From an uncultured Gammaproteobacteria bacterium (lineage in GTDB: Bacteria; Patescibacteriota; Patescibacteriia; SG8-24; DYFX01): a stretch of 64,000 bases of DNA. The notes below the pieces were generated by a model, which was not told the origin of the DNA, made no database searches, and worked only from the letters and a program-made list of their open reading frames with translations. The translations under genes and the position numbers were made by a program. The stretch spans positions 1,525 to 65,524 of the forward strand of contig CAYOJH010000006.1 in NCBI GenBank assembly GCA_964404275.1, written 5' to 3'. Numbering within the stretch: position 1 is the first letter of the stretch; each line of letters begins with the position of its first letter. Of the stretch, positions 39,077 to 54,446 are shown one piece after another.

Positions 39077-40891
39077 TCAGGAGGTTTTGCGTCCTGACTT
39101 TTTCCGAAGGCTGTGGAGGAGGAGCGTGGCGGCAAGCAAGCCGGCCGCGACGATGCTCCACGCGGGAACGCCTTCAGCGGGTCCTGCGCCCGTGTTCGGC
39201 AATTTCGGAGCGGCGGCGGCCACGACAACCGTGGCAATCGCGAAGTCGCGCACGGTCATGCCGTTCGCTTCGCCGGTGGCGATGGCGGTATTGGTCGTGG
39301 TCTTCGCCAGCATCGCTTGGCAGGTATAGGTCCACGTTTCGGAAGGATCAAGCTTGTTATCTCCGTTGGTATCGCCGGAGATACGCACCATCGGCGCGCA
39401 GGTGTCGTCGTTGAGCTGGACATTGCTAAGCGCGATCGTGCCGGGGTTGCTGACTTTTTCCGTGTAGGTGATCAGGCCGCCTTTCGCGCCCAAGGCCAGC
39501 GGGCTCGGAAGTTTCGTGACATGGATCAGCGGCGGCACGACAGGCGCGCCGACGACGACCGTTGCGCTGGCAAGATCGGTCGCGCTGATGCCGTTGGCCC
39601 AACCGGTCGCGACGACCGTGTTCGTATGGGTTTGCGTCAAGGTGGTCGTGCAGCTGTAGATCCACGTTTCGTTCACGTCAAGCTTCGCATCATGGTTGAG
39701 ATCGCCGGAGTTCAAGACAATGGGAATGCAGCTGTCGCCGACCATCGTGACGTCCGTGACGGGAACCGTGCCGACGTTACGAAGCGTGTAGGTGTACGTC
39801 ACCGATCCGGGACCGTTCGGCAGGGCCAGCGGACTCGGGACCTTGACGACGTCGATCAGCGGCGGCACGGGCGGAGTGACGACGGGTGCGCCGATGTCGT
39901 TATTCGTGATGATGCAGAAGCGGATATCGCCCGGATTGAGGTTCAAGCGGCCGTCGGCGTCGCAATCGCCAGAAAAAGATTGCGTGTAGCGCGGATCGCT
40001 CGTTTCCGTCACGGCATAGACGCCGGCCGGGGCGGGGAAGTCATACGTGGCGCCGGAAGAGACGGAGATCCCGTTCACGAACAACGGGAAGTCCGCGATG
40101 GTCTTAGTGCCGCCGTTATCATTGATAACTTTTTTGATGACGCCGATCGTACCCGAGTGGCTGCCGCCGGTTGAAACGGGCGTCACGGGAGCTGCGCAGG
40201 TCGGAACCGTGACGGTGTCGGTATTCGTCGTGACCGTGCCGCCAAAAGCCAAGGCTCGCCCTGTCCAGTTGGTGTTGGCGCCCACGGTGATGCCCGAGGC
40301 GTCGATGTCCGTACCGAAGAAGGTCGTATTGGCCGCGAGCGTCGTGGCCTGGGTCGGCGTCCAGAAGACGTCACACGCCGAAGCGCCGCTCAGCGTGACG
40401 ACGGCGCCGGCCGTCGATGTCAGTGCGCCCACGGGCCTGAAAATATAGGTTCCCGTGCCATTCAGCGTCAAAGGACCACCGACATCCATTGCTCCGTTGC
40501 TGCAATAGACGCCAGGCGCATAGACGCCGATCGGACCATGGGTCGTATCCGTGGAAAGATCGATCGCGCCGGCCGCGAACGTGAAGGTGCAGGGCTGGGA
40601 AGCCAACGCCGTGGAGGCATTACCTTGATCGGTACCTGCCGTCGAGTACGGAGCGCCGGACCCATAATTCGCATGCGTGCCCAGGGGGGCAACGGCCGGA
40701 GGCGTTGTGAACCCGACGTCGCCATTGATCGTGGTCGTCGTCGTGTTCGTGTAGGTGCTCGCCAGAACACCGTAGCTTGCCGCCGCTCCCAGCGAAGGCG
40801 ACGTGGCCGCAAGCGCGGCGACGGGACCGAATAGGCTGAATAGTAAAGCCAGAGCTGCTACGCCGCTCCCAACCCTTCGAAAAGTTTTCAT
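39077..40891 (-). CDS. LPXTG-anchored cell-surface repeat protein (Cna-B-like + DUF11-like repeats)
   Basis: Signal peptide; repeat modules as above; C-terminal LPNTG + hydrophobic segment + RKKSGRKTS = canonical sortase sorting signal. Confidence 0.75.
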   Translation of the reverse strand: MKTFRRVGSGVAALALLFSLFGPVAALAATSPSLGAAASYGVLASTYTNTTTTTINGDVGFTTPPAVAPLGTHANYGSGAPYSTAGTDQGNASTALASQPCTFTFAAGAIDLSTDTTHGPIGVYAPGVYCSNGAMDVGGPLTLNGTGTYIFRPVGALTSTAGAVVTLSGASACDVFWTPTQATTLAANTTFFGTDIDASGITVGANTNWTGRALAFGGTVTTNTDTVTVPTCAAPVTPVSTGGSHSGTIGVIKKVINDNGGTKTIADFPLFVNGISVSSGATYDFPAPAGVYAVTETSDPRYTQSFSGDCDADGRLNLNPGDIRFCIITNNDIGAPVVTPPVPPLIDVVKVPSPLALPNGPGSVTYTYTLRNVGTVPVTDVTMVGDSCIPIVLNSGDLNHDAKLDVNETWIYSCTTTLTQTHTNTVVATGWANGISATDLASATVVVGAPVVPPLIHVTKLPSPLALGAKGGLITYTEKVSNPGTIALSNVQLNDDTCAPMVRISGDTNGDNKLDPSETWTYTCQAMLAKTTTNTAIATGEANGMTVRDFAIATVVVAAAAPKLPNTGAGPAEGVPAWSIVAAGLLAATLLLHSLRKKSGRKTS

Positions 40892-41025
40892 GCGCGTCTT
40901 ATATAGACGCCACGACGCATGCGGAACTTAAGTGTTCGGCGACGCCCCATGGCAACTAAGCATTACCCAGTTGTCAAGTAATTGATTTAATCTTAGCACA
41001 TTTTTCAGACCCTGTGTGTGAATAA
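40892..41025 (-). promoter_or_regulatory. conserved ~110-nt upstream leader/promoter element, copy 1 (paralog of 43599..43725)
   Basis: Shares blocks (aaatgtgctaaga/tta, tcaattacttgaca, ggtaatgc, gccgaacacttaagttccgca, agacgcgc-ATG) with region upstream of gene 41517..43598; contains TTGACA. Confidence 0.4.
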
Positions 41026-41040
41026 CTATTCTGTTCAGCT

Positions 41041-41520
41041 CTATTTTAGAGGCTTTGTCTCGCCGATTGCCTCATCGGCCGTATCCGCGTCAGCTTCCGC
41101 CTTCGTGCGATGGATGCGGCCGTCGATATGATTCGGCGGCGCGTAGACCGTATAGAGCTTGAGCGCTTCGGCGCCGGTGTTTTTGAAATTATGTTTCGTG
41201 CCCGCGGTCACGACGACGACATCGCCGGGGCCGATCGGGAACGGCTTGTCATTGAGGTATCCCGTGCCCGTTCCCGAAATGAAGAAGAGCGTCTGTTCAG
41301 TATACGTGTGCGTTTCTTCGCCGACCTCGCCGCCGGGCGGAATGCTCATGACCACCAACTGGCTATTCGGACCGGTGAAGACGACGCGGCGGAAATAGTC
41401 GTTTTCCTGCGCCTGCGCGAGAATGTTGCCGTGATAGCTCATGGGAATGTGGGTGGGAGAGCTCGCGCAGCCCGTGCCGAGAAGCAGGAGGCCGGCGAGA
41501 AGAATAAGAAGGCGTTTCAT
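41041..41520 (-). CDS. cupin domain lipoprotein
   Basis: Lipobox LLGTGCASS; cupin motifs (GEVGEETHTYTEQ...PGDVVVVTAGTKHNFKNTG). Confidence 0.6.
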   Translation of the reverse strand: MKRLLILLAGLLLLGTGCASSPTHIPMSYHGNILAQAQENDYFRRVVFTGPNSQLVVMSIPPGGEVGEETHTYTEQTLFFISGTGTGYLNDKPFPIGPGDVVVVTAGTKHNFKNTGAEALKLYTVYAPPNHIDGRIHRTKAEADADTADEAIGETKPLK

Positions 41521-43598
41521 TGTTTTGCGATCCGCCGGTGAAGAATCAAACCGCTGACAACGATGATGGCGAGGAGCAAAAGGGCCGTGATCAACCCGTC
41601 CAGAGGCGTGGCAAAGAGCTCCAAGATGATCAAGCGGACCTTCTGCGTGAATGGAGTTTTTTTCGAGGCGTCGGCCGAAGTCGTTTCAGACGTTGAGACC
41701 GTTGATGGATGAACGGCATCGGTCCCCGTACTCGGAAGTTTCGATTCCGGCATCAGCTTGGACTTTGTCGCAAGATTGAACACGCCGGTCGCCGGCAAGC
41801 CGACGTCTCTTTGATATCTGATGAGGGCGGCGCGCGTGAGCGTTCCGAAATAGCCTTTCGCGACGCGCAACGGCATGGTCAGGAACCCGTCGCGCTCGAG
41901 CGCGGTCTGGAGCGCCGCGACATCCGCGCCTCGCGCGCCCAGCTTGAGAGACTGATACAGGATCGGGGCAAGGATATCGGCGTTTTCCGGCACGGCGTCG
42001 GTGAAGACCACGCGCCGTTGCGGGTAGGTGCCGTTGACCTGGTTCCAAACCCCTTCGCAGGTAATGAGATTCAGGTGCGCGAGGCCGTCGTTCGACGTAA
42101 AGACGGTCGTGGCATCGGCGTTTCTGTCGAACAGGCTGATGGTTCGAACGACGAAGGCAAGCGTTTCGCCTTTATCGTTGACGACGTAGACGATATCGCC
42201 CGCTTTGAGCTTGTCGAGGTCGTAGAAGACGAACGGCACGCCCTTATTGATGCCGAAGTGTCCGCCGATCACGGCGCTGCCTTCCTGGCCGGGATGCGGG
42301 CCGAGCGCGAACCAGGCGACGTTTTCCGAACCCGCCGGGACGTCCATTCTTCCGTCGGGCGTGATCAGCGCGTCCTCGATCGCGGAATCGACGCCGATCG
42401 TCGGAATCTTGAGGCGGACGGGAAGTCCCTGCGGAATGCCGCCCGGATCGCGGATGCTGGAATAGGCGATTTGATTCGAAAGAGATCCCGTGATCGGAAA
42501 TTTCGCCACGGGAAATTTCCAACCGAAGGCGAGGTCAGATGAAACCTGGGGTTCTGCAATCTGATTGCGTCGGGGCGACAAGAAGAAGTACAATCCGCCG
42601 CCCAAGATGGCGGCGAGCACAATGATAGACAGCACTCTTAAGGAGCGTTTGAAGCTCTTTCGCGCTTTCCCGGTCTTGCGCTTCCGCGTGAGCAGCAACA
42701 GGAGAAGGAGGATCGCCAAGACCAAGGACATGATTCCCCACAGAACGATTTTCGACCCGGCGCCGAGTCCGGTCAGCGGAAATTTCGGGACATCCTGATT
42801 CGAAAAGCCGGGAACGAGGCTCCTGACCATGACGGTCAGAGCGAAGTCGTCCACCGCCCGCAAGCCGTTCGCGAACGCCGTCACGTGCACCGTGTTGGTC
42901 GTCGTCTGCTTCAAGTTCGCCGTGCACGTGTAGATCCAGACCTCGTTCGTGTCCAGGAGGCTGTTGCCGTTCGTGTCTCCTAATTTTCCCGACATCGCGC
43001 TGCACTTGTCATCGACGATGGTGACGTTGCTCAGCGGGACAGCGCCAGGGTTGTTGACTCTGTAGGTGAAGGTGATCGGACCGCCCTCGGCCGGCAGGGA
43101 AAGCGGATAGGCGACTTTGGTGACGTTGATGACGCTGACGAGCGGAGCGGGATTCGCGGAGCCGACGACGACGGTCGTATACGCCTTGTGCGTAGCGGTG
43201 ACGCCGTTGGCGCTGCCGGTGACCGTGGCCGTGCTTTGCGTCGTTGCGGAAAGCGTCGTCGTGCAGGTATAGCGCCAGGTTTCGCCGTACTCGAGTCTGC
43301 CATCCCCGTTATCGTCGCCGTCATGAAAGGCGACGGCGCCACAGGCGTCATCGACGACATGCACGTCCGTCAGCGCGATCTCCTGAAGAAAATTCTTCAC
43401 CGCGTAGTTGTACGTGACCTTGCCGCCCGCTTGAGGCAAGACCAACGGGTCGGGCACCGACGTGATGCCGATCAATGGCACGTATAAGACGCTGCCGCTT
43501 CCTTGCGCGCCGGCCGCAAACGCAGCGATCGGACCGATCAAAAGAGATACGAAAAAAAGAGCCGCAATGGCCCGTGAACCCGTTTTATTTGTATGCAT
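41517..43598 (-). CDS. fusion protein: surface repeat domains + sorting-signal-like TM segment + sortase catalytic domain + C-terminal PG_binding_1 domain
   Basis: ATG at 43598 (MHTNKTG) with signal peptide; two DUF11-like repeats; KFPLTG + hydrophobic + TRKRKTGKARK; second TM; sortase motifs (IGGHFG, LNLITCEG, RRVVFTD); C-terminal LKLGARGADVAALQTALERDGFL...GYFGTLTRAALIRYQRDVGL. Confidence 0.65.
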   Translation of the reverse strand: MHTNKTGSRAIAALFFVSLLIGPIAAFAAGAQGSGSVLYVPLIGITSVPDPLVLPQAGGKVTYNYAVKNFLQEIALTDVHVVDDACGAVAFHDGDDNGDGRLEYGETWRYTCTTTLSATTQSTATVTGSANGVTATHKAYTTVVVGSANPAPLVSVINVTKVAYPLSLPAEGGPITFTYRVNNPGAVPLSNVTIVDDKCSAMSGKLGDTNGNSLLDTNEVWIYTCTANLKQTTTNTVHVTAFANGLRAVDDFALTVMVRSLVPGFSNQDVPKFPLTGLGAGSKIVLWGIMSLVLAILLLLLLLTRKRKTGKARKSFKRSLRVLSIIVLAAILGGGLYFFLSPRRNQIAEPQVSSDLAFGWKFPVAKFPITGSLSNQIAYSSIRDPGGIPQGLPVRLKIPTIGVDSAIEDALITPDGRMDVPAGSENVAWFALGPHPGQEGSAVIGGHFGINKGVPFVFYDLDKLKAGDIVYVVNDKGETLAFVVRTISLFDRNADATTVFTSNDGLAHLNLITCEGVWNQVNGTYPQRRVVFTDAVPENADILAPILYQSLKLGARGADVAALQTALERDGFLTMPLRVAKGYFGTLTRAALIRYQRDVGLPATGVFNLATKSKLMPESKLPSTGTDAVHPSTVSTSETTSADASKKTPFTQKVRLIILELFATPLDGLITALLLLAIIVVSGLILHRRIAKQ

Positions 43599-43725
43599 GC
43601 GCGTCTCATGACGGCCGGCGCGTCGTGCAGAACTTAGACGTTCGGCGGCACGCGGCAGCGAGGCATTACCTTGCTGCCAAGTAATTGACTTAAGATTAGC
43701 ACATTTTATAGGCATCGACAAAAAA
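43599..43725 (-). promoter_or_regulatory. conserved upstream leader/promoter element, copy 2
   Basis: See copy 1; same block order and spacing relative to ATG. Confidence 0.4.
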
Positions 43726-43742
43726 AGACCTTCCATGAAGGA

Positions 43743-43759
43743 AAGTCTCTTTTGGTAGC
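43743..43759. repeat. left direct repeat (att-like) GTCTCTTTTGGTAGCCC
   Basis: Matches 51294..51310 GTCGCTTTTGGTAGCCC (16/17); right copy overlaps tRNA-Glu 3-prime end incl. CCA. Confidence 0.5.
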
Positions 43760-43883
43760 CCGGACCACTGAAATGTGGAACGAAATCATGACGGACCTCA
43801 AGGCGTGGACTGTGTTTGGTAGGGACTTGAGGGCTACTGCCGCAGCAGCTTGATAAGACACTGCCACGGGGGAATGGAAGAGG

Positions 43884-45398
43884 TTACTGCGCCGATGAAA
43901 CAACCTCGTTAAGAACGCGCCAGATTGCGATCATGGCCTCGGTATCTCGACCGCAATACTTTTTAAGGTCGGCAGCGATTTTCGCTTTTACCTCGTCGGT
44001 CTGCCCTTCAAAAATCATCCGGTACCAAGCATCCATTGCCGCGCCACCATCCTGAATTTCCAGCTCTTTGTAAGTTAGCGTGGGTACTAACACGGGTAAT
44101 ACTTTCTTTATCGATGTTCTCCCCCGGAAATCCGGATGTACATGGAACTGCTTCTGAAAAATTTCCATCAAATCATAAATGCGAGCATTGATATCAGACA
44201 AGAATGAATCGTGCTGCGGATTTCTCTCCGCAAGCTGAGAGTTGATCTTCCTTTCAAAGGGCTTATACCACACGATAATGGTACCGCTTTCCCCAATAGT
44301 CCCCTGTAGCTTATCGATGATGGCCTCTGACGGGTCTGTTGCTTCCTCGTGCAAGTACTCGAAATGCTCAAAATCAGCATCCGGGCCACTCAGTCTATCC
44401 AAAGAAAATTGGAATGGTATCTGTTGATATGGCTTATAGCCCTTAAACAGCGGGATCGCTGGCGCGTAACTTTCATAGTCAAGAAAATACAACGGGAAGG
44501 CTAGCGAAGAAAGCTCACGTTCGATGGCATCCTTGTCGATGATTGCCTTTTGAGTCTTGTGGGCAATGGCCTGCATTTTCTGAATATCCGACAAAGAAAA
44601 CTCATCCGGCACATCCTTAATGTCGAAGATTCCGTCTTCAACTAAACTCTCCAACTTTTTCTTACTGATCCTCGATAAGTCATGCACCGAGTATTCAGGT
44701 ACCTGCGGATGGGAGTAGCAAAAAGTTGAGCACTGGGAATTCCTGCCGACATACAGGCATTCACAGGATAGGGCGCTCTCATCAAGTTGGGTCAGCGCCT
44801 CTCTCGCTCGATCCATTCGTGCTTTTACATCCTCCATCCTGTCAGCAACCTTTTCGGTCACATCCTCCATCTCGAAGAGCTCTGAAAGTGAGATTTCGTC
44901 ACCACGAACGTACTCTTTGTTCAGGTGAATGATTTTGATTTGCCCAATTTTTATACCCACTGATTGGAGAATGCGTGCCTGAAAGGATGCGTCATCGATA
45001 TGGTCCCGACCATCCTCCCCTTCGTTCAAAGAATTGGTCCCTTTGACCTCGTATAGATTCCAGCACCCGTGATCCTCATCGAACTCCAAAACGTCGTTAC
45101 GCGCCAAAAAACCGTCGTGAATGAAAGTCGCTTGGAAAAGCGCTTTGGAGCCATGACCCATCAACTCTTCCGTCCTCTTTGCGGCAGCCTCGCCCGACTC
45201 CTCGATTAAAATGCCTTCGGGAAAAAGCTTCCTCGCCCATTGTTCAACAAGGTTTCCTTTTGCCAACAGACCTCGCTCAAATTCTGAGAGGGAGAACATT
45301 GAGCTCAAGTCAGGCTTGTGCACCTTAAGCCACGCGTTCTTTCCGCACGCGCTATATTCGAGAAACAGGGTTTTTGTGAGGTATTTCATTTGATCCAT
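43884..45398 (-). CDS. Cas4/RecB-like PD-(D/E)xK nuclease with Fe-S Cys cluster and C-terminal domain of unknown function (DUF2779-like architecture)
   Basis: Probable start MDQMKYL at 45398; N-terminal Cys (YSACGK), D...EVK nuclease motif (ARNDVLEF...NLYEVKGT), CECLYVGRNSQCSTFC cluster (C-x-C-x9-C-x3-C); ~250-aa C-terminal region unassigned. Confidence 0.65.
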   Translation of the reverse strand: MDQMKYLTKTLFLEYSACGKNAWLKVHKPDLSSMFSLSEFERGLLAKGNLVEQWARKLFPEGILIEESGEAAAKRTEELMGHGSKALFQATFIHDGFLARNDVLEFDEDHGCWNLYEVKGTNSLNEGEDGRDHIDDASFQARILQSVGIKIGQIKIIHLNKEYVRGDEISLSELFEMEDVTEKVADRMEDVKARMDRAREALTQLDESALSCECLYVGRNSQCSTFCYSHPQVPEYSVHDLSRISKKKLESLVEDGIFDIKDVPDEFSLSDIQKMQAIAHKTQKAIIDKDAIERELSSLAFPLYFLDYESYAPAIPLFKGYKPYQQIPFQFSLDRLSGPDADFEHFEYLHEEATDPSEAIIDKLQGTIGESGTIIVWYKPFERKINSQLAERNPQHDSFLSDINARIYDLMEIFQKQFHVHPDFRGRTSIKKVLPVLVPTLTYKELEIQDGGAAMDAWYRMIFEGQTDEVKAKIAADLKKYCGRDTEAMIAIWRVLNEVVSSAQ

Positions 45399-45450
45399 GC
45401 TCGTACGATAGGGTTTTTGTGTATACTTAGTCAAAACACAGGCCCTACCG

Positions 45451-48400
45451 ATGGATAACCCTGCCATTCCGCTAAAAGTGAAACTGCTCTGGAAGGCATC
45501 AAAGCCTGCCGATTTTGATTTGTACAAGGCTGCGCTCGAATGGAGTCTTGTTGATCCGATAATCATTGAAAACCGAGACGACCTTAAGTCCGAGTATCTT
45601 TGGCGCGACAAAATAAAGCCATACCACCATCAAGTCACAAATCTAATCACTTTTTGTCGTCGTCTCCCGGTTACACTTCTCGCAGATGACGTTGGTTTGG
45701 GTAAAACCATCAGCGCTGGCTTGATAGCCAGTGAACTCATGACGCGTGATCGTGTTTCCAAGATTTTGATTGTCTGCCCCAAACTGCTGATGAATCAGTG
45801 GAGCGAGGAATTGGAACAAAAGTTTGGCATTGCGTCGACAACTGCCATTGGTAAGACTCTCATAAAGGCGAAGCCGCCGAAGGATGTCGGGGCGGTAATA
45901 ACAACCTACACATCCGCGAAACTGTATTTAGACGACCTCGAAGACGCGGGTTATCAAATGTTGATTCTTGATGAGGCGCATAAACTTCGCAATCTATACG
46001 GTGTCGATCCGACACCTCAAGTAGCAACTCGTTTTAGAAAAGCTCTGAAGGACAGGCTGTTTAGATACGTCCTGATGCTAACAGCTACGCCAATTCAGAA
46101 TCGCCTTTGGGACTTGTATTCACTTATAGACCTATTGACCGTAGCTCGTGGACACGAGAATCCATTTGGTAGTGAAGGGATTTTTGCGCGTAAGTTTATT
46201 GATGACGATCGAACGCAGGCGCGTCGTCTTAACTTAGGCGCAAAGGATGAATTCCGCTCGATCATTTACCAGTACATGTCGCGTGTTCGGCGCGGTGACG
46301 CGCAGCTATATTTTCCTGAAAGGAAAGTTCTGCTCAAGTCCGTAGCGCCAACCGCAGAGGAAAGCGAGCTGATTGGAATTATTGCGGAACCAATTCAGGA
46401 GTTGAACCGTTTGGGACAAATATCGGTTCTTCAGGCCCTCATCAGCAGCCCTGATGCTTTGGCGGCCCAGCTTAGAACGATGGCACGAAACGAAACCATA
46501 CCAGCGGAGCTTGCGACTCGCGTCCGGGAGGTCGTCAAGAAAATGAAGACGACAGCGAAGATGCAGGGCTTGGGATCATTGGTTGAAAAACTTAGAAAGG
46601 AGCGTCCCGAAGACTGGCGGATGGTAGTCTTCACGACTCGCAGGGAAACCCAAACGACGATTCAGGCCTTCTTGGAAGGGCAGGGCATCGCTTGTGGGGT
46701 TATCAATGGGGATTCCGGGCGACGAAACCAAGAGACGATCAATAATTTTAAATGCTACCCTCCCCAGATTAACGTAATCATTTCTACCGAAGCCGGGTCC
46801 GAGGGCGTTAACTTACAGGCCGCAAACGTCCTTGTTAACTACGATCTTCCGTGGAATCCGATGGTGGTGGAGCAGCGCATTGGCCGTATTCAACGCCTTG
46901 CGTCTGAGCACAAGACCGTCTCCATTTTCAATATCATCCTAAAGGGTACTTTCGAGGAGTATATAGTCGGAAGGTTGATGGAAAAACTTCAGATGGCCTC
47001 CCAAGCCATTGGTGATGTTGAGTCGTTGCTTCAGGCGTCGGGAATGGAAGAGGGGGAGGGAGAAATCACTTCATTTGAGGAGCAAATCCGTCGGCTGGTT
47101 ATCGAGTCATTGGCTGGGAAAGATGTTGAAGAAGCCACCCGGATGGCAGAAAAAAGCATCGAACACGCAGAGGCCGAACTCGATCGCGAGGAGAAAAATA
47201 TTGATTCGATGTTGGGCGGTATGGGTGATGTTGTGGGAGTCGATCCGTATCCTCCGAAATTGACCCCGGTCAATCACTCAATGGGACTTCGTGAGTTCGT
47301 GCTTGGCGCACTAGAAGCTCAGGGCGAAAAAGTAACGGCCCAGCCGAACGGTTTGTACGTCTCAGAATCCCATGGTCAAAAGGAACTGTTTCGTTTTGAT
47401 AATGAAGTTGCTGATCCTGAAACGACCAGTACCTTATATGCCCCCGGAAGTCCGGCATTTGAGCGTCTGGTGAATCGTTGTACCAGCCGCGGTTATCACA
47501 CGGTAAACGATGTCGATATAGAACCGCTAAAAAAGGCGATGGATATCGCGGGCGGTTGGGCTAAAGCATTTGATGGCCGATTTGATTCGGCTGCTCCGTT
47601 GGCGGTGTATAGGAATTTTGAAGGTTCGGCAATCATCAGGGTTCATGCAACGGTGGCTCATGACAGCTATGAGCGTCTCGTGGAGTCTGATTGTGCAATA
47701 AAAATGGATCATGACTTGGGCAAACTCGGTCTAGAGCCTCTCCATGCTTCGATTAGCGACCCGCACAAAGTTGGGTTGGATACGGATTGCCTGATTGATA
47801 AGGCATTCCATGATCCCGACATATCAGAATTTTGCCGTTTCTACGGTGAGCGCTTGGAGCAGGAGCTCAAGGCTGTAGGTGATGATGAGCGCAAAAGAAA
47901 AAAGACCGTCGATGACTTCACTCCCCGCATTGCCGTGGAACTCGTGGGGCTAAATGGCAACATCCATCGCCGAATTAAGTTGAACACCAAATATCGAATT
48001 GATGAGGGGGAGTACGAAAGTTCATTGACTGTCATTCCGAATAGCGAAGAAGTTATTGAGGCACCCGAGATCAAGAAGTGCGAGAAAACTGGGCGGCATG
48101 CCCCAGCCGACTGCTTTGGGATTTGTGAAATTAGCAAATTACAAGTGCTGAGGCACCTATTGGTTGCCTCAGACATTTCAGACAGGCAGGCTCTTCCAGA
48201 GCACGTGATTAAGTGCTCATACTCGGGCAAAAAGGTGCTGATCGATGAGGCAGCAAAATCGGACATCTCTGGACATTTTGTGACTGCATCATTGCTGCTT
48301 ACGTCAGCGATTAGCGGAAAGAAGGGGGAGCCAACATACTTTGGTCAATGTGAGTTCACCTCGGTGACAGCCCTCAAGGACGAGCTTTTAACGAGTGAAG

Positions 48401-49149
48401 TATCCGGAAAGCTCTACAGGTCCGATGAGCAGCTCCGCTCTACGGTTTCGGGTAAATCCGGACATCGCCAAGAGTTTATAAAATGCGCGGTAACCAGTCA
48501 GCCCTTACTGAGGGAAGAAGCAGAGCAATGCGAAGTAACTGGCACGCTAGTTGCGCCCGGCATCCTCGAAGAGTGTTCGGTGACGAAGAAAAAGGTCTTG
48601 CCGAGCGAACTGGCGAAAAGCGAATTCAGCGGAAAAATGGCACTCCAAAAGTACTTCGTTTCTAGTTCAATTTCAGATGGCAAAATTCTTGAGTCCGAAG
48701 CCGTTCGATCTTCGAAGGGAAAATATTGCTCCCCCGCAGAAGTAAAACCGTGCGCATGGAGCGGTCTTAAATACCACCCTGATGATTTAGAGATATGTCA
48801 CCTGTCGGGTCTTTCAGTTCACTCCGTATACGTTACACCCGATGGCCCTCCAAGAATTACGTCACTGGCCCGACTCCTTGATGGAACGCTCAGAAAAGCT
48901 GATGGGACTGAATATTGGCAGAAAATCGTTGATGCTCTAGCTGGCTCGGTTGGCGGCGTTCTCAAGGTGGATGCGGCGGAGTTTTCTCCGGACGGCACGC
49001 TACTCGCGGTTTGCTTGGAATCAACGAAATGGTTGGTGAAGACTCGCTATTTGGGCCTCGTGTTTTCATTGCGACAAAACTCGGCTACGGGTCGAATCGT
49101 GTCTGGAAAGCGAAAGGATCATAGGTGGATTGACGACCTCGTAATTTAA
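45451..49149 (+). CDS. SNF2/Rad54-family (SF2) helicase, 1232 aa, with long C-terminal extension containing degenerate Cys/Ser-Gly-Lys tandem repeats
   Basis: Motif I DDVGLGKT, II ILDEAHKLRN, III LMLTATPIQNRLWDLYSLIDLL, helicase-C motifs YDLPWNPMVVEQRIGRIQRL; residues ~880-1125 form ~15 tandem ~15-aa repeats. Confidence 0.85.
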   Translation: MDNPAIPLKVKLLWKASKPADFDLYKAALEWSLVDPIIIENRDDLKSEYLWRDKIKPYHHQVTNLITFCRRLPVTLLADDVGLGKTISAGLIASELMTRDRVSKILIVCPKLLMNQWSEELEQKFGIASTTAIGKTLIKAKPPKDVGAVITTYTSAKLYLDDLEDAGYQMLILDEAHKLRNLYGVDPTPQVATRFRKALKDRLFRYVLMLTATPIQNRLWDLYSLIDLLTVARGHENPFGSEGIFARKFIDDDRTQARRLNLGAKDEFRSIIYQYMSRVRRGDAQLYFPERKVLLKSVAPTAEESELIGIIAEPIQELNRLGQISVLQALISSPDALAAQLRTMARNETIPAELATRVREVVKKMKTTAKMQGLGSLVEKLRKERPEDWRMVVFTTRRETQTTIQAFLEGQGIACGVINGDSGRRNQETINNFKCYPPQINVIISTEAGSEGVNLQAANVLVNYDLPWNPMVVEQRIGRIQRLASEHKTVSIFNIILKGTFEEYIVGRLMEKLQMASQAIGDVESLLQASGMEEGEGEITSFEEQIRRLVIESLAGKDVEEATRMAEKSIEHAEAELDREEKNIDSMLGGMGDVVGVDPYPPKLTPVNHSMGLREFVLGALEAQGEKVTAQPNGLYVSESHGQKELFRFDNEVADPETTSTLYAPGSPAFERLVNRCTSRGYHTVNDVDIEPLKKAMDIAGGWAKAFDGRFDSAAPLAVYRNFEGSAIIRVHATVAHDSYERLVESDCAIKMDHDLGKLGLEPLHASISDPHKVGLDTDCLIDKAFHDPDISEFCRFYGERLEQELKAVGDDERKRKKTVDDFTPRIAVELVGLNGNIHRRIKLNTKYRIDEGEYESSLTVIPNSEEVIEAPEIKKCEKTGRHAPADCFGICEISKLQVLRHLLVASDISDRQALPEHVIKCSYSGKKVLIDEAAKSDISGHFVTASLLLTSAISGKKGEPTYFGQCEFTSVTALKDELLTSEVSGKLYRSDEQLRSTVSGKSGHRQEFIKCAVTSQPLLREEAEQCEVTGTLVAPGILEECSVTKKKVLPSELAKSEFSGKMALQKYFVSSSISDGKILESEAVRSSKGKYCSPAEVKPCAWSGLKYHPDDLEICHLSGLSVHSVYVTPDGPPRITSLARLLDGTLRKADGTEYWQKIVDALAGSVGGVLKVDAAEFSPDGTLLAVCLESTKWLVKTRYLGLVFSLRQNSATGRIVSGKRKDHRWIDDLVI

Positions 49150-49195
49150 GTGAACGATCCTTGACGCGGGGTATGTAGGCGATAGGCTGGTCTGC

Positions 49196-49453
49196 ATGAA
49201 CCCCAGAACGTCACCCACTTTTGCGAATGACGGATACCGAAGGATTTTTTGTAATGCCTGCGGTCACTTTATCGGGGAGACTCATCTTGGCGAAAAACGG
49301 GAGAGGCAGCTCCGTTGTAAGTTCTGCGGCACGACCGTCAATTTACGACCGCCCCTGAAAGTGGAGCACGATAGCCAGAGGTACATCGAATTTGGCCCTC
49401 AAGCCGCCTGCTTCACGGCTGATTTGACTGACCCGCCTCGTCAGGGTAATTAG
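49196..49453 (+). CDS. small zinc-ribbon protein
   Basis: CNACGH...CKFCG (CxxC-x20-CxxC) in 85-aa ORF directly downstream of helicase. Confidence 0.45.
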   Translation: MNPRTSPTFANDGYRRIFCNACGHFIGETHLGEKRERQLRCKFCGTTVNLRPPLKVEHDSQRYIEFGPQAACFTADLTDPPRQGN

Positions 49454-49521
49454 TATCAATCGACCCGTAACAACCGATTTCGGGCTATAAAGGCACCCCC
49501 TTCCTAGGCGGGTGTGAAGAG

Positions 49522-49567
49522 AGCCCGGCAGAAGCCTGTTTTTTGGCTTCTAGCCGGGCTTTTTTTA
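49522..49567. terminator. strong rho-independent terminator
   Basis: agcccggcagaagcc-tgtttttt-ggcttctagccgggct followed by ttttttt. Confidence 0.55.
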
Positions 49568-49613
49568 TTGGTCACCCCTTGGGGCAGACACCACAAAATA
49601 CCCGCTTTCTGCC

Positions 49614-49814
49614 ATGCTTTCCCTAGCACAAGCAAGGAAAATCGATCCTAGTTTGGAGGATGTGTCCGACGAAGAATTGTTGGGCATTCTTGAGGCGTTG
49701 TATGCATTTGGTCGGGTGGCACTAGATACTTGGTCCACTAAGCAGCATGTTTCCAATAATCCCCTTGGGGTCCAGACTGAAGCAGTAGCACCCGGTATGC
49801 TGCATAGAACATGA
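49614..49814 (+). CDS. small ORF translationally coupled to recombinase (possible accessory/directionality factor)
   Basis: 66-aa ORF whose stop overlaps recombinase ATG (ATGA); no motif; may be spurious. Confidence 0.2.
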   Translation: MLSLAQARKIDPSLEDVSDEELLGILEALYAFGRVALDTWSTKQHVSNNPLGVQTEAVAPGMLHRT

Positions 49815-51343
49815 GCCAAATTTTGAATAAAACCTGCGTCATTTATTGTCGTGTCTCTTCGAAAGAGCAGGTTGAAGGGACGAGTTTGGAAACCCAACAA
49901 CGGCTTTGTCGAGAATACGCTGATCAGCAAGGTTGGTTGGTTTCCGAGATTTTCATGGAACTTGGTGAATCAGCAAAGACGGCTGATCGAACTGAATTTG
50001 CCAAGGCAATCAACTACTGCACGAGCAAAAAAGGTCGCACTTCGTATTTTGTGGTCTATAAGCTCGACCGCTTTAGTCGGAAAGCTGAAGATCATCTCAT
50101 GATCCGTGCTGTTTTGAGTAAGGCGGGTACTGAATTGCGTTCAGTTACCGAGCCAATCAACGAAACTGCAACGGGAAAACTGATGGAGACGGTCATTGCG
50201 GGATTTGCTGAATTCGACAACAACGTAAGGACTGAGCGAACCAAGAACGGGATGATTCAGCGAGTGCAGGAAGGTATTTGGGTATGGACTCCACCACTCG
50301 GATACCACAAACCCGTCAGGGGTAAAAAGACAAACATCGTTCCCGACCCTCTCGTGGCCCCGCTCATAAGGGCTGGCTTTGAGGAATACGCCAAAGGGGG
50401 ACGCACGTACAAGGCTTTGGCGGCCTTCTGGACGCGACAGGGCCTGCTCACGAAGCGAGGAAGGCCAATCAAGCTTCAAGAGGTTCAGAAGATGCTTAGG
50501 AACCCGGTTTATTGCGGCACCATCAGGGCCTTTGGGGGAGAATGGAACGGCGGCTTCGAACCCATTGTCTCCCGGCAGTTGTTTCTGGCTTGTCAGGACA
50601 AAGTAGGGAATTCGAGCTGGTCGGCACCACGCCTGACTGACAATGCGACGTTCCCACTTCGTAAGCTGGTCATCTGCTCTGAGTGTGGGACGACGCTGAC
50701 CGGGAGTTCAACAAGGGGGAGGCAGGGAAAGCGCTACCCTTACTACCATCATTCCAAGAAAAACTGCACGAGGCCGAAAACCATCCCCAAAGAAAAATTC
50801 GAAAAGGCTTTTCTTGAGTGTCTGGCCAAGGTTGAGCCAAACAAGAAATACGAGCACCTATTCAAGGCGGTCATTACTGATATTTGGAAAACAAACCACA
50901 AGAATCTTGATGACCAAAAATCATCCGTTCGTAGGAACATCGAAAAGTTGGAAATTGAAAAACAGAGGATTTTCGAGTTGCATCGTGCAGGCACATATTC
51001 AGATCAGGATTTCAAAGAACAGCGTGCTATCGTGGCGGGGAAGATGGAGGTCCAATACAGCTTGATCGAGGAGTACAGGGGAGAGGAATTCAATATGGAT
51101 GAGGCCTTGGAATACTGCTTCGATTTTGTTGGCAAGGCGACCAAAACTTGGTTGGAGCTAGAGGGCAACTACCCAGCCCGAATCCGTTTTCAAAACCTTA
51201 TTTTCAAGGCGCGGCTGACTTTTGACGGGGAGGAATTTGGAAACACGAAATTATCGCCAATCTTCCAACTAAAAGCGACCTCTCGCGGGGAGAAGTCGCT
51301 TTTGGTAGCCCCAAGGGGAGTCGAACCCCTATTTACTCCGTGA
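49811..51343 (+). CDS. large serine recombinase (resolvase/invertase N-terminal catalytic domain + recombinase domain + zinc ribbon)
   Basis: CVIYCRVSSKEQ catalytic Ser motif, YKLDRFSRK, recombinase domain, zinc-ribbon ICSECGTTLTG...C; 3-prime ~40 nt of ORF read through the tRNA-Glu 3-prime half, so true C-terminus uncertain. Confidence 0.85.
   Translation: MSQILNKTCVIYCRVSSKEQVEGTSLETQQRLCREYADQQGWLVSEIFMELGESAKTADRTEFAKAINYCTSKKGRTSYFVVYKLDRFSRKAEDHLMIRAVLSKAGTELRSVTEPINETATGKLMETVIAGFAEFDNNVRTERTKNGMIQRVQEGIWVWTPPLGYHKPVRGKKTNIVPDPLVAPLIRAGFEEYAKGGRTYKALAAFWTRQGLLTKRGRPIKLQEVQKMLRNPVYCGTIRAFGGEWNGGFEPIVSRQLFLACQDKVGNSSWSAPRLTDNATFPLRKLVICSECGTTLTGSSTRGRQGKRYPYYHHSKKNCTRPKTIPKEKFEKAFLECLAKVEPNKKYEHLFKAVITDIWKTNHKNLDDQKSSVRRNIEKLEIEKQRIFELHRAGTYSDQDFKEQRAIVAGKMEVQYSLIEEYRGEEFNMDEALEYCFDFVGKATKTWLELEGNYPARIRFQNLIFKARLTFDGEEFGNTKLSPIFQLKATSRGEKSLLVAPRGVEPLFTP
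51294..51310. repeat. right direct repeat (att-like) GTCGCTTTTGGTAGCCC overlapping tRNA 3-prime end
   Basis: See left repeat. Confidence 0.5.
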
Positions 51344-51378
51344 AAGGGAGTTGTCCTAGCCATTAGACGATGAGGCCG
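51303..51378 (-). tRNA. tRNA-Glu (anticodon UUC)
   Basis: Manual fold of minus strand: acceptor GGCCUCA/UGGGGCU (with G1-U72 and U5-G68 wobbles), D-arm GUCU-AAUGGCUA-GGAC, anticodon arm ACUCC-CUUUCAC-GGAGU (UUC), T-arm AGGGG-UUCGACU-CCCCU, discriminator A, encoded CCA. Confidence 0.6.
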
Positions 51379-51493
51379 GGCGTGCGTTGAACACGGGTAA
51401 TCTATAGTGAAAACGCGGGGGCGTCAAGGCGCGCGGAAGCCATCCACAGGGCGTCCGCCGCGCGCGGGTGTATGGTCGCAAGAGGAGGAGACC

Positions 51494-52222
51494 ATGTTCA
51501 TTCGCCGATCGATTCCGGTTCTGCTTTGCCTGGCGGCGATCTTCGCCTGCGAAGACGGCGCCGTCGTTCCGGCCGACGATGCGTGCCCCGGCATCGCGCC
51601 TCCTTCGCAAGAAGACGAGATCCTCGCGGGCTACGCCGCCGCCGCGCGCGCCTACGAAGCGGACAATCATCTGCAGGCCGGCTGGGCCGATTGGATGATC
51701 CTGCATCGGGACATTTTCAAGAAGGCTTACGTTCGCGCCCGCACGGACCGGCGCATTCGCGTGCGCGTCGGATACCTGAACCCGATCGTCTTCGATCCGC
51801 CCTGGACCTCCGAGACGGAGCACTTCGCCGCGCTCGAGCGGATGATGGAGCTGGCCTATCCGGGCTGGGACTTCTCGTTCTCGGCCGACGATCCCGCCGC
51901 GGAGTTCACGGTTCTGCTCGGCGACAAGAACATCTCCTACGCGGACGGCGACACGGTCCGCCTCGTATGGGAGGGCATCCTGCCGCACGAGTTCGGTCAC
52001 GAGCTCGGGCTGACGCATCACTACTGCGACGAGACGCTCCAGCCGTGCGCGGCCACGCCGCCGGGCGAGTACGAAGCGACCTGCATCATGTCGCGCAACT
52101 CCGGAACCTGGGGTCCGGCCGAGCAGTTCGTGCTGAATCTCGGTCAGCAGCGTTACAACCAGCAGGTCTACGATGTCATGAACGATCTCAACGGCCGCTA
52201 TCCGCCCGATTGGCCGAACTGA
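51494..52222 (+). CDS. metzincin-like zinc metalloprotease lipoprotein
   Basis: Signal/lipobox (VLLCLAAIFAC); HEFGHELGLTHH = HExxHxxGxxH metzincin motif. Confidence 0.55.
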   Translation: MFIRRSIPVLLCLAAIFACEDGAVVPADDACPGIAPPSQEDEILAGYAAAARAYEADNHLQAGWADWMILHRDIFKKAYVRARTDRRIRVRVGYLNPIVFDPPWTSETEHFAALERMMELAYPGWDFSFSADDPAAEFTVLLGDKNISYADGDTVRLVWEGILPHEFGHELGLTHHYCDETLQPCAATPPGEYEATCIMSRNSGTWGPAEQFVLNLGQQRYNQQVYDVMNDLNGRYPPDWPN

Positions 52223-52290
52223 ATGCCGCCCCGACCGATACCGGGGCCTTTTCTTTTTACGAAAAAAAGACCCGACGTGATGTCGGGGGT

Positions 52291-52815
52291 TCAGGCGGCC
52301 AGCGCGTCGGCCGTGAGGCGGGCGCGCAGCTGTTCGACGGCCTTGAAAGCGTTGCTTTTGACCGTGCCTTCGGTGACGCCGAGCGCGGCGGCGGCTTCGG
52401 GGAAGGTGCATTCCTCGAGGCGGACGAGTCGCAGCGCGGCCACCAAGCGGGGGATGCGCGGTTCGAGCGCGTCGATGGCGTCGAGCACTTGTCGGCACGC
52501 GACGATCGTCTCGGGAGAGGGCGCAGGGTCGACGTCTTCCTGACGCGCGTCTTTCGCGTTCGGTTCCGAGGGCAGCCGCCGGCTGCGCTGGAGATGCGTG
52601 AAGGCGGCGCTCGTTGCGACCTGGTAGAGCCAGCTCTTGTAATGCGTGACCGGATGGCGCAGCGCGGAGACGGCGCCCTTCACCCAGGCGTCTTGCAGGA
52701 CGTCGGCCGTCTCTTCGGAGCGCTTGCCCAGGATGCGTCGGACGACCGCTTCGAGCACCGGACGATACGACAGGAATTCCCGCGTGAAACGTTCGATGCG
52801 ATCTTGACGATCCAT
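52291..52815 (-). CDS. RNA polymerase sigma-70 factor, ECF subfamily
   Basis: Region 2 (VLQDAWVKGAVSALRHPVTHYKSWLYQVA) and region 4 HTH (ECTFPEAAAALGVTEGTVKS); ATG at 52815 (MDRQDRI); ORF track extends upstream. Confidence 0.75.
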   Translation of the reverse strand: MDRQDRIERFTREFLSYRPVLEAVVRRILGKRSEETADVLQDAWVKGAVSALRHPVTHYKSWLYQVATSAAFTHLQRSRRLPSEPNAKDARQEDVDPAPSPETIVACRQVLDAIDALEPRIPRLVAALRLVRLEECTFPEAAAALGVTEGTVKSNAFKAVEQLRARLTADALAA

Positions 52816-52882
52816 GAGAGCCTCCTCTTGAAAGGTTCGTGACGAAGTAGTACCATCAAACATCGCTTCTGTCAATCCTCCC

Positions 52883-54366: not shown

Positions 54367-54446
54367 GGACGGGGGATTGAACTCCTTCGGGCGAAATGCT
54401 AGCGTCAAATCAGGCCTTTCCATCAACCTGACCCAAGGAGTACGTC

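What the first reader, a model, noticed from the sequence alone, without database searches (positions are those of the whole stretch)
48080..48830. Cys/Ser-Gly-Lys tandem ~15-aa repeat array in the C-terminal tail of the SNF2 helicase
Helicase residues ~880-1125 form about 15 consecutive degenerate repeats of 13-16 aa. Examples: CEKTGRHAPADCFGI / CSYSGKKVLIDEAAKS / DISGHFVTASLLLTS / AISGKKGEPTYFGQ / CEFTSVTALKDELLTS / EVSGKLYRSDEQLRST / CEVTGTLVAPGILEE / CSVTKKKVLPSELAKS. Loose consensus: [C/x]-x-[VIF]-[ST]-G-K-x-[VL]-x3-E-x3-S. I do not recognise this as a known helicase accessory domain. A solenoid/beta-helical or metal-binding array could mediate nucleic-acid or phage-protein sensing.
Basis: seen in the sequence. 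Interest (0 to 1): 0.6.

Follow-up and report, generated by a model that had tools for sequence, protein, structure and literature searches.

The report
Quantised hairpin-repeat rod on defence helicase
The tail of this DrmD-like SNF2 helicase is a real, ancient array of seventeen 15-residue beta-hairpin units that matches no catalogued domain and, across relatives, changes length only in blocks of four units (13 to 73), which points to a rigid, length-tunable arm in a probable anti-phage helicase-nuclease module.

Summary
Residues 877-1130 (nt 48079-48840) of the 1232-aa SNF2 helicase are 17 head-to-tail units of exactly 15 aa (one of 14). The unit consensus is [C/S]-x-[VIL]-[S/T]-G-[K/R]-x-[V/A]-L-x-x-E-[L/F/A]-x-x, and the periodicity has z=9.8. 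AlphaFold2 predicts one knuckle-like beta-hairpin per unit (pLDDT 93), and covariation supports this. No Pfam, NCBIfam, PADLOC or PHROG model matches the array. No PDB sequence matches it, and no PDB fold reaches E<=0.001.

At least 487 representative proteins carry the array, all seen in the same helicase family. Unit number is 13, 17, 21 ... 73, equal to 1 mod 4 in 149 of 151 arrays.

The Cys/Ser alternation looks like a packing code, not a zinc-ligand pattern. Ser pairs with an acidic residue in the next unit (90%), Cys with a hydrophobic one (61%).

Long-array relatives occupy the DrmD slot of class 1 DISARM loci. The window copy, like 29 of 80 genomic relatives, is paired with a DUF2779 (Cas4-like plus RNase-H-like) nuclease. 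Here the pair sits on a 7.5-kb serine-recombinase island in tRNA-Glu.

Best reading: a rigid spacer arm in a defence translocase. The function is inferred, not shown.

The parts
45451..49149 (+). DrmD-like SNF2 helicase gene, 1232 aa
   Evidence: ORF. Pfam SNF2-rel_dom and Helicase_C. The best PADLOC and NCBIfam matches are BrxHI, DrmD and DISARM_DrmD, on the ATPase core only and below the curated cut-off. The start codon agrees with homologues.
45673..47010 (+). SNF2 ATPase core (residues 75-520)
   Evidence: Pfam PF00176 at 75-307 and PF00271 at 381-483. Mean pairwise identity among family members is 75-77%.
47281..48060 (+). Middle alpha/beta domain (residues 611-870). No family match; weak fold resemblance to the C-terminal part of RapA.
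   Evidence: AF2 model with pLDDT about 85-95. Foldseek against PDB: RapA 8spg at E=0.026, prob 0.98. No Pfam or PADLOC hit.
48079..48840 (+). Array of 17 tandem 15-residue hairpin units (residues 877-1130): the finding itself
   Evidence: Autocorrelation z=9.8. Unit table and logo. AF2 pLDDT 93.3 with the pattern loop6-strand3-turn3-strand3 per unit. Covariation.
48841..49146 (+). C-terminal domain (residues 1131-1232): two helices plus a five-stranded antiparallel sheet; no family match
   Evidence: AF2 secondary structure. No Pfam hit with E<0.1. Conserved at 43% identity across the family.
43884..45389 (-). DUF2779 protein (501 aa from M75 of the 575-aa ORF): the partner nuclease, transcribed divergently from the helicase
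   Evidence: Pfam PF11074 at 3.7e-38 and a weak NCBIfam TM0106 RecB-like match. Called as 501 aa on the Logan contig. The literature predicts a Cas4-like PD-(D/E)XK domain plus an RNase-H-like 3'-5' exonuclease (PMC13621843, PMC3985635). A homologue lies within 10 kb of the helicase in 29 of 80 genomic loci, directly adjacent in 22, and is fused to it in L046.
49811..51343 (+). Large serine recombinase of the island
   Evidence: Pfam Resolvase, Recombinase and Zn_ribbon_recom.
43749..43761 (.). Left copy of the 13-bp direct repeat CTTTTGGTAGCCC (putative att site)
   Evidence: Exact match search. About 0.002 matches of this length are expected by chance between the two stretches compared (own estimate).
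51299..51311 (.). Right copy of the 13-bp direct repeat, overlapping the 3' end of tRNA-Glu
51303..51377 (-). tRNA-Glu(ttc): the integration target of the low-GC island
   Evidence: ARAGORN. GC is 0.47-0.50 inside the island against about 0.62 outside.

Best explanation
Residues 877-1130 form a previously uncatalogued protein repeat. Each 15-residue unit makes a small beta-hairpin. Its six-residue tip, [C/S]-x-x-[S/T]-G-[K/R], resembles a rubredoxin or zinc-ribbon knuckle that has lost its metal ligands.

Successive hairpins are joined by a three-residue P-x-E turn. They lock onto their neighbours in three ways:
- strand pairing between position 15 and position 7 of the next unit, and between positions 8 and 13 within a unit;
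- a Glu14 to Arg/Lys7 salt bridge to the unit two steps ahead;
- a binary core contact in which Ser1 pairs with an acidic position 12 of the next unit, or Cys1 pairs with a hydrophobic one.

The result is an elongated, rigid rod. It joins the RapA-like middle domain of a DrmD-like SNF2 dsDNA translocase to a small C-terminal domain. Across the family the rod changes length only by four units (60 aa). The likeliest reason is that four units make a whole number of superhelical turns, so the C-terminal domain keeps the same orientation relative to the motor.

Inferred function: the rod is a length-tunable spacer or lever arm. It holds the C-terminal domain, and through it a partner or DNA, at a set distance from the motor. 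The setting is an anti-mobile-element system, built here with the divergently transcribed DUF2779 nuclease and in long-array relatives with DISARM DrmA/B/C/MI.

Shown: the repeat, its register, its conservation, the length quantum, the covariation contacts and the gene neighbourhoods. Inferred: the rod geometry, the spacer role and the defence function.
For: - Repeat and register.
- Fold: AF2 on the array alone gives pLDDT 93.3 and pTM 0.68, with a uniform per-unit pattern of loop, strand, 3-10 turn, strand. The same pattern appears in the 673-aa tail model.
- Contacts from repeat-averaged covariation: position 15 to position 7 of the next unit scores 0.110, position 14 to position 7 two units on scores 0.115, and positions 8 to 13 score 0.076. 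Nothing rises above noise (<=0.047) at three or more units apart. The position 14 to position 7 pairs are E-R/K in 61-87 of 109 sequences.
- Packing code: Ser1 goes with an acidic position 12 in the next unit in 90% of 1602 unit pairs. Cys1 goes with a hydrophobic residue in 61% and an acidic one in 17% of 2361 pairs. Controls are flat.
- Distribution: 487 representative proteins at E<=0.001, with lengths up to 2098 aa.
- Length quantum: array length equals 258+60n aa. An independent unit counter gives 13, 17, 21, 25, 29, 33, 37, 41, 49 or 73 units in 149 of 151 arrays. Three independent 60-aa deletions at different positions all produce 13-unit arrays.
- Conservation: the array is 57% identical between family members, against 47% for the middle domain and 43% for the C-terminal domain. 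Structural positions 1, 4, 8, 9, 12 and 13 are the most conserved.
- Context: a DUF2779/RNase_H_2 nuclease lies within 10 kb of the helicase in 29 of 80 genomic loci (directly adjacent in 22) and is fused to it in L046; it also flanks the helicase in metagenomic relatives. P0121 and P0123 lie among DrmMI, DrmA, DrmB and DrmC, with PADLOC E-values from 0 to 6e-71. The window copy lies on a low-GC island bounded by a 13-bp repeat at tRNA-Glu and carrying a serine recombinase. No relative was found in IMG/VR viral contigs.
- Precedent: an SNF2 helicase fused to a nuclease (HmaA) protects against phage T4 (PMC11232893). Class 1 DISARM contains the SNF2 helicase DrmD (bioRxiv 10.1101/2021.12.28.474362).
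Against: - No coordinates were available, so rise, twist and straightness of the rod were not measured. The idea that four units make whole turns is an inference from the length quantum alone.
- Covariation shows no contact between units four apart.
- The sequence has a three-unit (C-S-S) super-period that the four-unit model does not explain.
- Conserved K/R at the hairpin tip and unit-specific invariant polar residues are more than a passive spacer needs.
- About two thirds of genomic relatives have no nuclease neighbour. Some sit among housekeeping genes, so a repair or transcription role such as RapA's is not excluded.
- No experiment links any family member to defence.
Confidence: 0.5

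Rival explanations
1. The array is a nucleic-acid-binding repeat. Each hairpin tip, [S/T]-G-[K/R], forms a main-chain NH nest plus a basic side chain that grips one backbone phosphate. The rod would then lie along DNA or RNA, and its length would set the footprint.
For: [S/T]4, G5 and K/R6 are the most conserved exposed residues. The array is more conserved than its flanking domains. It is attached to a DNA translocase. Unit-specific invariant polar residues exist.
Against: Net charge of the array is only -1 to +11 over 266 residues, and -1 in the window protein. Acidic residues at positions 2, 12 and 14 are equally conserved. Position 7, next to the Lys, is engaged in inter-unit salt bridges. 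There is no fold match to a known nucleic-acid-binding repeat.
Confidence: 0.2
2. The array is a multi-zinc (or other metal) domain made of tandem zinc-ribbon or LIM-like fingers. The conserved Cys and His residues are the ligands.
For: In 109 arrays of 17 units, 12 Cys and 3-4 His are 75-100% conserved. His1005 is replaced by Cys in the deletion variant that lost Cys967. The variant that lost Cys922 has a new Cys at 996. The best, though weak, fold matches are LIM domains, the CHY zinc finger and a phage 'LIM domain' or 'metallothionein' protein. Cys877/888/892 with His902, and Cys1093/1101/1116 with His1109, could form cap sites.
Against: Position 4, the second ligand of a CxxC knuckle, is S/T in 99% of units and essentially never Cys. 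Position 1 Cys covaries with a hydrophobic partner and Ser with an acidic one, as expected for a buried core residue. Cys number does not rise in fours with array length. At most a few sites are therefore plausible.
Confidence: 0.15
3. The array is an oligomerisation shaft. Several chains intertwine into a fibre, as in the 15-residue-repeat triple beta-spiral of the adenovirus fibre, assembling the helicase into a multimer.
For: The repeat length is the same, 15 residues. Adenovirus fibre shafts appear among the BFVD Foldseek hits at E of 2e-4 to 9e-3.
Against: Those hits have prob 0.14-0.33 and TM about 0.09-0.15. AF2 gives a confident monomeric fold. The intra-chain covariation contacts already account for the conserved positions.
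Confidence: 0.05
4. The array is a rapidly diversifying sensor surface for phage proteins, and repeat expansion is driven by an arms race.
For: Unit number varies widely, from 13 to 73. The context is defence-related. Recent 12-unit duplications occur in long arrays.
Against: Orthologous units are well conserved across phyla: 57% identity, higher than the neighbouring domains. 107 of the 151 arrays counted have exactly 17 units. The variable positions 2, 7 and 15 include residues involved in inter-unit contacts.
Confidence: 0.07

Closest known systems
DrmD, the SNF2-like helicase of class 1 DISARM
   Same: The ATPase core is most similar to DrmD and BrxHI models: NCBIfam DISARM_DrmD at 7e-63 and PADLOC DrmD at 1e-52. 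Long-array relatives P0121 and P0123 sit in the DrmD slot next to DrmMI, DrmA, DrmB and DrmC.
   Different: The score is far below the curated cut-off (213 against 610 bits). No DrmD model aligns beyond residue 655, so the middle domain, array and C-terminal domain are not part of described DrmD. The window locus has no drmA, drmB, drmC or drmMI. Its partner is a DUF2779 nuclease.
Rubredoxin-type zinc knuckles, zinc ribbons and tandem LIM domains
   Same: Each unit is a short beta-hairpin with a tight turn of the form X-x-x-X-G-x, spaced about 15 residues apart. Consecutive hairpins form an elongated rod. LIM, CHY and phage 'LIM domain' proteins are the best fold matches.
   Different: The ligand positions are C/S and S/T rather than CxxC. 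Covariation indicates core packing rather than metal binding. All PDB matches have E>=0.058 and TM<=0.34. The spacing is uniform, unlike LIM.
Helicase-nuclease defence modules: HmaA (SNF2 fused to a PD-(D/E)XK nuclease), Hna, Nhi, DdmD
   Same: An SF2/SNF2 motor is combined with a PD-(D/E)XK-type nuclease, as separate neighbouring genes here and as one ORF in L046. HmaA protects against phage T4 and needs both of its domains (PMC11232893).
   Different: The nuclease here is the two-domain DUF2779 type (Cas4-like plus RNase-H-like), not NOV_C. None of those systems has a repeat array. The match to the PADLOC HmaA model covers the helicase core only.
Beta-hairpin tandem repeats that build rods: choline-binding/CROP beta-beta-solenoids and the adenovirus fibre shaft
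   Same: One hairpin per short repeat (15-20 aa), an elongated superhelical assembly, and variable repeat number (known from the literature on these families). Weak Foldseek hits to C-LytA and to fibre shafts.
   Different: There is no sequence similarity and a different consensus, with no aromatic choline cage and no fibre-shaft motif. The protein is cytoplasmic. The matches are not significant.
RapA/HepA, the RNA-polymerase-associated SNF2 ATPase
   Same: A bacterial SNF2 ATPase with a long C-terminal extension. Foldseek aligns the linker-to-middle part of the tail model with RapA at prob 0.98. The NCBIfam RapA model matches at 6e-33.
   Different: The score is 114 bits against a cut-off of 576, and E=0.026 for the fold match. 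The N-terminal RNAP-binding domains are absent. RapA has no repeat array.

Membership tests
DISARM DrmD (NCBIfam NF038317/NF038318) | Whole-protein score above the curated equivalog cut-off | tested here: not met
   213 bits against a cut-off of 610, and 173 bits against 950. The matches cover the ATPase core only.
DISARM DrmD (NCBIfam NF038317/NF038318) | Encoded next to drmA (helicase), drmB (DUF1998/MZB), drmC (PLD) and drmMI | tested here: not met
   The island holds only the DUF2779 gene, the helicase, a small ORF and a serine recombinase. The flanks encode a sortase-domain protein, an ice-binding-like protein, a cupin and TsaD. The feature is met for relatives P0121 and P0123.
Zinc ribbon / rubredoxin-knuckle fingers | Two CxxC (or CxxH) knuckles supplying four metal ligands | tested here: not met
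   Position 4 is S/T in 99% of 322 units. Position 1 is C 60% / S 40%. Cys1 covaries with a hydrophobic partner.
Zinc ribbon / rubredoxin-knuckle fingers | Beta-hairpin with a knuckle turn, and significant fold similarity to solved members | tested here: inconclusive
   The strongest couplings are of antiparallel hairpin type: position 15 to position 7 of the next unit, and positions 8 to 13. There is no same-position coupling between neighbouring units. No beta-helix protein appears among the Foldseek hits.
Adenovirus-type triple beta-spiral shaft | A 15-residue repeat forming an obligate trimer | not testable with these tools
   Only low-probability Foldseek hits (prob 0.14-0.33). Oligomeric state cannot be assessed here.
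Hma system helicase HmaA | SNF2 core plus a C-terminal NOV_C PD-(D/E)XK nuclease domain | tested here: not met
   The PADLOC HmaA match (7e-47) covers the core only. There is no NOV_C or any other Pfam hit in the tail.
RapA/HepA | Score above the NCBIfam PRK04914 cut-off | tested here: not met
   114 bits against 576.
DUF2779 family (the neighbouring gene) | Pfam PF11074 above the gathering score | tested here: met
   131 bits against 23.3.

The most novel reading that the evidence does not exclude
The array is a new class of protein repeat: a largely metal-free fibre of knuckle hairpins whose length is quantised in whole superhelical turns. It would work as a molecular ruler or backbone-tracking arm. 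It would set how far from the SNF2 motor the partner nuclease or DISARM effector acts on invading DNA, so that repeat number (13 to 73 units, perhaps about 100 to 650 A by analogy with LIM rods) tunes target geometry.
Probability: 0.2. Interest if true: 0.8.

Novelty: new variant of a known kind. Interest (0 to 1): 0.55.

Why it matters
DrmD is a component of class 1 DISARM for which no mechanism has been described, and SNF2 helicases recur in BREX, Zorya, Dpd and Hma. Here a whole clade of DrmD-like helicases (at least 487 clusters at 50% identity, spread across many phyla including CPR bacteria) carries a 200-1100-residue domain that no database describes.

The domain follows unusually clean rules: an exact 15-residue register, a Ser/acid versus Cys/hydrophobic pairing code, and a strict four-unit length quantum. 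These rules give direct experimental handles. One can add or remove one to four units and measure metal content, DNA binding and nuclease docking. The repeat would also be a new entry for protein-family databases and for repeat-protein design.

The analysis also defines a candidate two-gene defence cassette, the array helicase plus a DUF2779 nuclease, carried on a minimal 7.5-kb integrative island.

Tried and rejected
- Model coordinates are not exposed, so Cys-Cys distances and rod twist and rise could not be measured.
- The search for related loci with the array alignment A2 failed because no block was conserved enough. A1 was used instead.
- Sequence search of PDB with the 673-aa tail gave no hit at E<=1.
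- Tandem Repeats Finder on the DNA gave nothing.
- The small ORF after the helicase (49196-49453) is not homologous to the 77-aa ORF that follows P0121.
- Literature searches for tandem zinc-ribbon repeats and for SNF2 plus Cas4 or RNase-H-like defence systems found no description of this array.
- Scanning IMG/VR found no phage-encoded relative.
- A weak Pfam hit of P0121 to the 15-residue-coil antifreeze protein CfAFP (E=0.97) was considered and dropped as chance.
- A general Zn(Cys)4-per-four-units idea was considered. It was rejected because position 4 is never Cys, because Cys1 pairs with hydrophobic partners, and because Cys counts do not rise in fours.


Full report
**1. What is there**

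The ORF 45451..49149 (+) encodes a 1232-aa protein. Its ATG matches the N-termini of full-length homologues. Pfam finds SNF2-rel_dom at residues 75-307 and Helicase_C at 381-483, and nothing after residue 520. The finding's coordinates correspond to residues 877-1127.

**2. Is the repeat real?**

BLOSUM62 autocorrelation of residues 877-1127 against 1000 shuffles gives z=9.8 at lag 15. Every multiple up to 90 gives z=6.6-8.7. The 95th percentile of the best lag in shuffles is 3.5, and three control regions of the same protein stay at or below 2.7.

Framed on the family alignment, the array is 17 units in an almost perfect 15-residue register. Units start at 877+15k for U1-U14. U15 has 14 residues, U16 starts at 1101 and U17 ends at 1130.

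The logo from 322 units is [C60/S40]-x-[VIL]-[S51/T48]-G68-[K/R 59]-x-[V/A]-L-[P/K/R]-x-E-[L/F/A]-x-x. There is no tandem repeat at DNA level.

**3. Fold**

Two AlphaFold2 runs were made, one on the 673-aa tail with 51 sequences and one on the array alone with 23 sequences. The array scores pLDDT above 90 in both (93.3 on its own, pTM 0.68).

Each unit has the same DSSP pattern. Positions 1-6 are a six-residue loop, 7-9 a strand, 10-12 a three-residue 3-10 turn and 13-15 a strand. Each [C/S]-x-x-[S/T]-G-[K/R] motif is therefore the tip of a small hairpin, like a rubredoxin or zinc-ribbon knuckle.

I tested this with covariation on 109 arrays of 17 units (Neff 92), averaging over equivalent unit pairs:
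- position 14 to position 7 two units ahead: 0.115
- position 15 to position 7 of the next unit: 0.110
- positions 8 to 13 within a unit: 0.076
- all pairs three or more units apart: at or below 0.047

The position 14 to position 7 pairs are Glu-Arg/Lys salt bridges. These are antiparallel hairpin contacts plus next-but-one packing. This is the pattern of a thin rod, not a parallel beta-helix.

**4. The Cys/Ser alternation**

Whether position 1 is Cys or Ser is 94% conserved between orthologous units. That first suggested metal ligands. Three observations argue against this for the bulk of the array:
- Position 4, the second ligand of a CxxC knuckle, is S/T in 99% of units.
- Across about 4000 unit pairs in 265 proteins, Ser1 is followed by an acidic residue at position 12 of the next unit in 90% of cases. 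Cys1 is followed by a hydrophobic residue in 61% and an acidic one in 17%. The same test on the unit itself or on the unit two ahead is flat. At the one polymorphic site, 1057, Cys goes with V/L/A/I at 1083 and Ser goes with Glu.
- Cys number does not rise in fours with array length.

So Cys/Ser is a binary packing code. A few sites may still bind metal. In 109 arrays, Cys877, 888 and 892 with His902, and Cys1093, 1101 and 1116 with His1109, are 89-100% conserved. His1005 becomes Cys in one deletion variant. This remains open.

**5. Comparison with known domains and folds**

No match was found at any of these thresholds:
- Pfam at E<=10, for the array or for a 73-unit relative
- NCBIfam at E<=0.1
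- PADLOC at E<=1 and PHROGs at E<=0.01
- PDB sequences at E<=1

Foldseek against PDB gives nothing at E<=0.001. The best matches are megalin, tandem LIM domains (LMO2, prob 0.54) and the CHY zinc finger. For the whole tail model, the best match is RapA to the linker/middle region (E=0.026, prob 0.98).

The array therefore works like a chain of degenerate knuckle hairpins but is not a member of any described family.

**6. Distribution and the four-unit length rule**

A word-indexed search with the tail found 163 proteins at 37-53% identity from many phyla. A profile of the array searched against 1.84 billion representatives found 487 proteins at E<=0.001 and 240 at E<=1e-30. Every one of the 150 listed looks like the same helicase or a fragment of it, with lengths up to 2098 aa.

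I measured the distance between the end of the middle domain and the start of the C-terminal domain. It equals 258+60n residues, with n = -1, 0, 1, 2, 3, 4, 5, 6, 7, 8, about 10, about 11, and 14. An independent dynamic-programming unit counter gives 13, 17, 21, 25, 29, 33, 37, 41, 49 or 73 units in 149 of 151 arrays with reliable ends. The exceptions have 18 and 44 units. The 13-unit arrays arose by three different in-register 60-aa deletions, removing U3-6, U5-8 or U10-13.

Unequal exchange between 15-residue units could change the number by any integer. A strict quantum of four therefore implies selection. The most likely reason is that four units restore the orientation of the C-terminal domain.

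The sequence itself has a three-unit (C-S-S) super-period. Lag 45 beats lag 15 in long arrays. There are weaker four- and eight-unit components, and the most recent duplications are 12 units. The coexistence of periods 3 and 4 is unexplained.

**7. Conservation**

Mean pairwise identity among 17 full-length homologues is 75-77% for the ATPase lobes, 57% for the array, 47% for the middle domain and 43% for the C-terminal domain. Within units, positions 1, 4, 8, 9, 12 and 13 are the most conserved, and positions 2, 7 and 15 the least. This is the profile of a structural element under purifying selection, not of a diversifying sensor. Net charge is -1 to +11 per array, which is weak support at best for polyanion binding.

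**8. Genomic context**

In the window, the helicase is transcribed divergently from a DUF2779 protein at 43884..45389 (-), with Pfam E=3.7e-38. Published analyses predict that family to combine a Cas4-like PD-(D/E)XK nuclease with an RNase-H-like 3'-5' exonuclease (PMC13621843 and PMC3985635).

Both genes, a small CxxC ORF and a large serine recombinase lie in a 7.5-kb stretch of GC 0.47-0.50, inside DNA of GC about 0.62. The stretch is bounded by a 13-bp direct repeat whose right copy overlaps the 3' end of tRNA-Glu. The flanks encode ordinary host proteins.

Among 80 relatives in reference genomes, 29 have a DUF2779/RNase_H_2-type nuclease within 10 kb. It is immediately adjacent in 22 and fused into one ORF in L046. 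Two CPR genomes show the same pair.

The two longest-array relatives examined lie in class 1 DISARM loci, in the position of DrmD:
- P0123 follows DrmA, DrmB and DrmC.
- P0121 lies between DrmMI and DrmA/DrmB, with a RES protein and GmrSD nearby. PADLOC E-values range from 0 to 6e-71.

Other relatives are solitary. No relative occurs in IMG/VR viral contigs.

The ATPase core is closest to DrmD and BrxHI models but far below the curated DrmD cut-off, and no DrmD model reaches the array. From the literature, class 1 DISARM has the SNF2 helicase DrmD upstream of drmABC (bioRxiv 10.1101/2021.12.28.474362). An SNF2 helicase fused to a nuclease, HmaA, protects against phage T4 (PMC11232893).

**9. 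Interpretation**

Shown: a genuine, ancient, family-wide 15-residue repeat; its hairpin contacts; the pairing code; the four-unit quantum; and the association with nucleases, DISARM genes and a mobile island.

Inferred: the array is a rigid rod that holds the C-terminal domain at a fixed orientation and tunable distance from a dsDNA-translocating motor, within an anti-mobile-element system.

Rivals: a phosphate-gripping nucleic-acid-binding array, a multi-zinc domain, an oligomeric shaft and a diversifying sensor. All are less well supported, but only experiments or coordinates can exclude them.

**10. Verdict**

The finding is real and not ordinary. It is an uncatalogued repeat domain with strikingly regular rules, in a defence-type helicase clade. 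It is best classed as a new variant of known kinds (knuckle-hairpin repeats, DrmD-like helicases), and its function remains inferred.

Noticed in passing
window 43749-51311: A 7.5-kb low-GC island (0.47-0.50 against 0.62) is bounded by the 13-bp direct repeat CTTTTGGTAGCCC, and its right copy overlaps the 3' end of tRNA-Glu(ttc). Its only cargo is the DUF2779 nuclease, the array helicase, small ORFs and a large serine recombinase. It looks like a minimal integrative element carrying a two-gene cassette.
   Followed up: partly
window 49196-49453 (+) and 49614-49814 (+): Two small ORFs lie between the helicase and the recombinase. One is 85 aa with CxxC...CxxC (weak zinc-ribbon-type Pfam hits only). 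The other is 66 aa, abuts the recombinase start, and was called on the Logan contig. It could be an excision or regulatory factor. The 85-aa ORF is not homologous to the small ORF that follows P0121.
   Followed up: partly
L046 6686-12016: In a Pyrinomonadaceae MAG, a single open frame of about 1776 codons contains both the DUF2779-like nuclease and the array helicase. This gene fusion supports a functional link between the two proteins.
   Followed up: partly
L007 and L093/L094: The longest-array relatives (73 and about 61 units) sit in class 1 DISARM loci in the DrmD position. L007 also holds a RES-domain protein and GmrSD next to the helicase. L093 holds a DUF2997 protein and an AAA ATPase downstream.
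   Followed up: partly
window 43884-45611 (-): The mechanical ORF for the DUF2779 gene (575 aa, TTG start) overlaps the helicase start by 161 nt. Gene calling on an identical contig supports a start at Met75 (45389), which leaves a 61-bp divergent intergenic region that must hold both promoters.
   Followed up: partly
L091 (Logan SRR8931233, 7335 bp): The only other record of the exact helicase sequence is a 7.3-kb contig that covers essentially the island alone (window about 43732-51066). This could reflect an assembly break at the island borders or a separate, excised form.
   Followed up: no
window 39077-43736 (-): Upstream of the island lie host genes for large surface-type proteins: an ice-binding-like protein with DUF7507 repeats (604 aa), and a DUF7507, sortase and peptidoglycan-binding protein (739 aa).
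   Followed up: no
window 51356-52842 and 54423-55973: Long overlapping ORFs lie on both strands (380/456 aa and 508/509 aa) with no Pfam hit at E<=0.001. This is typical of high-GC DNA, so which strand is coding was not resolved.
   Followed up: no
L005 2621-5913; L049, L052, L089: In some relatives the neighbouring nuclease is a larger RNase_H_2 protein. It is followed by, or fused to, an SF1 helicase (AAA_30/AAA_12, about 1150 aa in total). This suggests a three-activity variant of the module.
   Followed up: no
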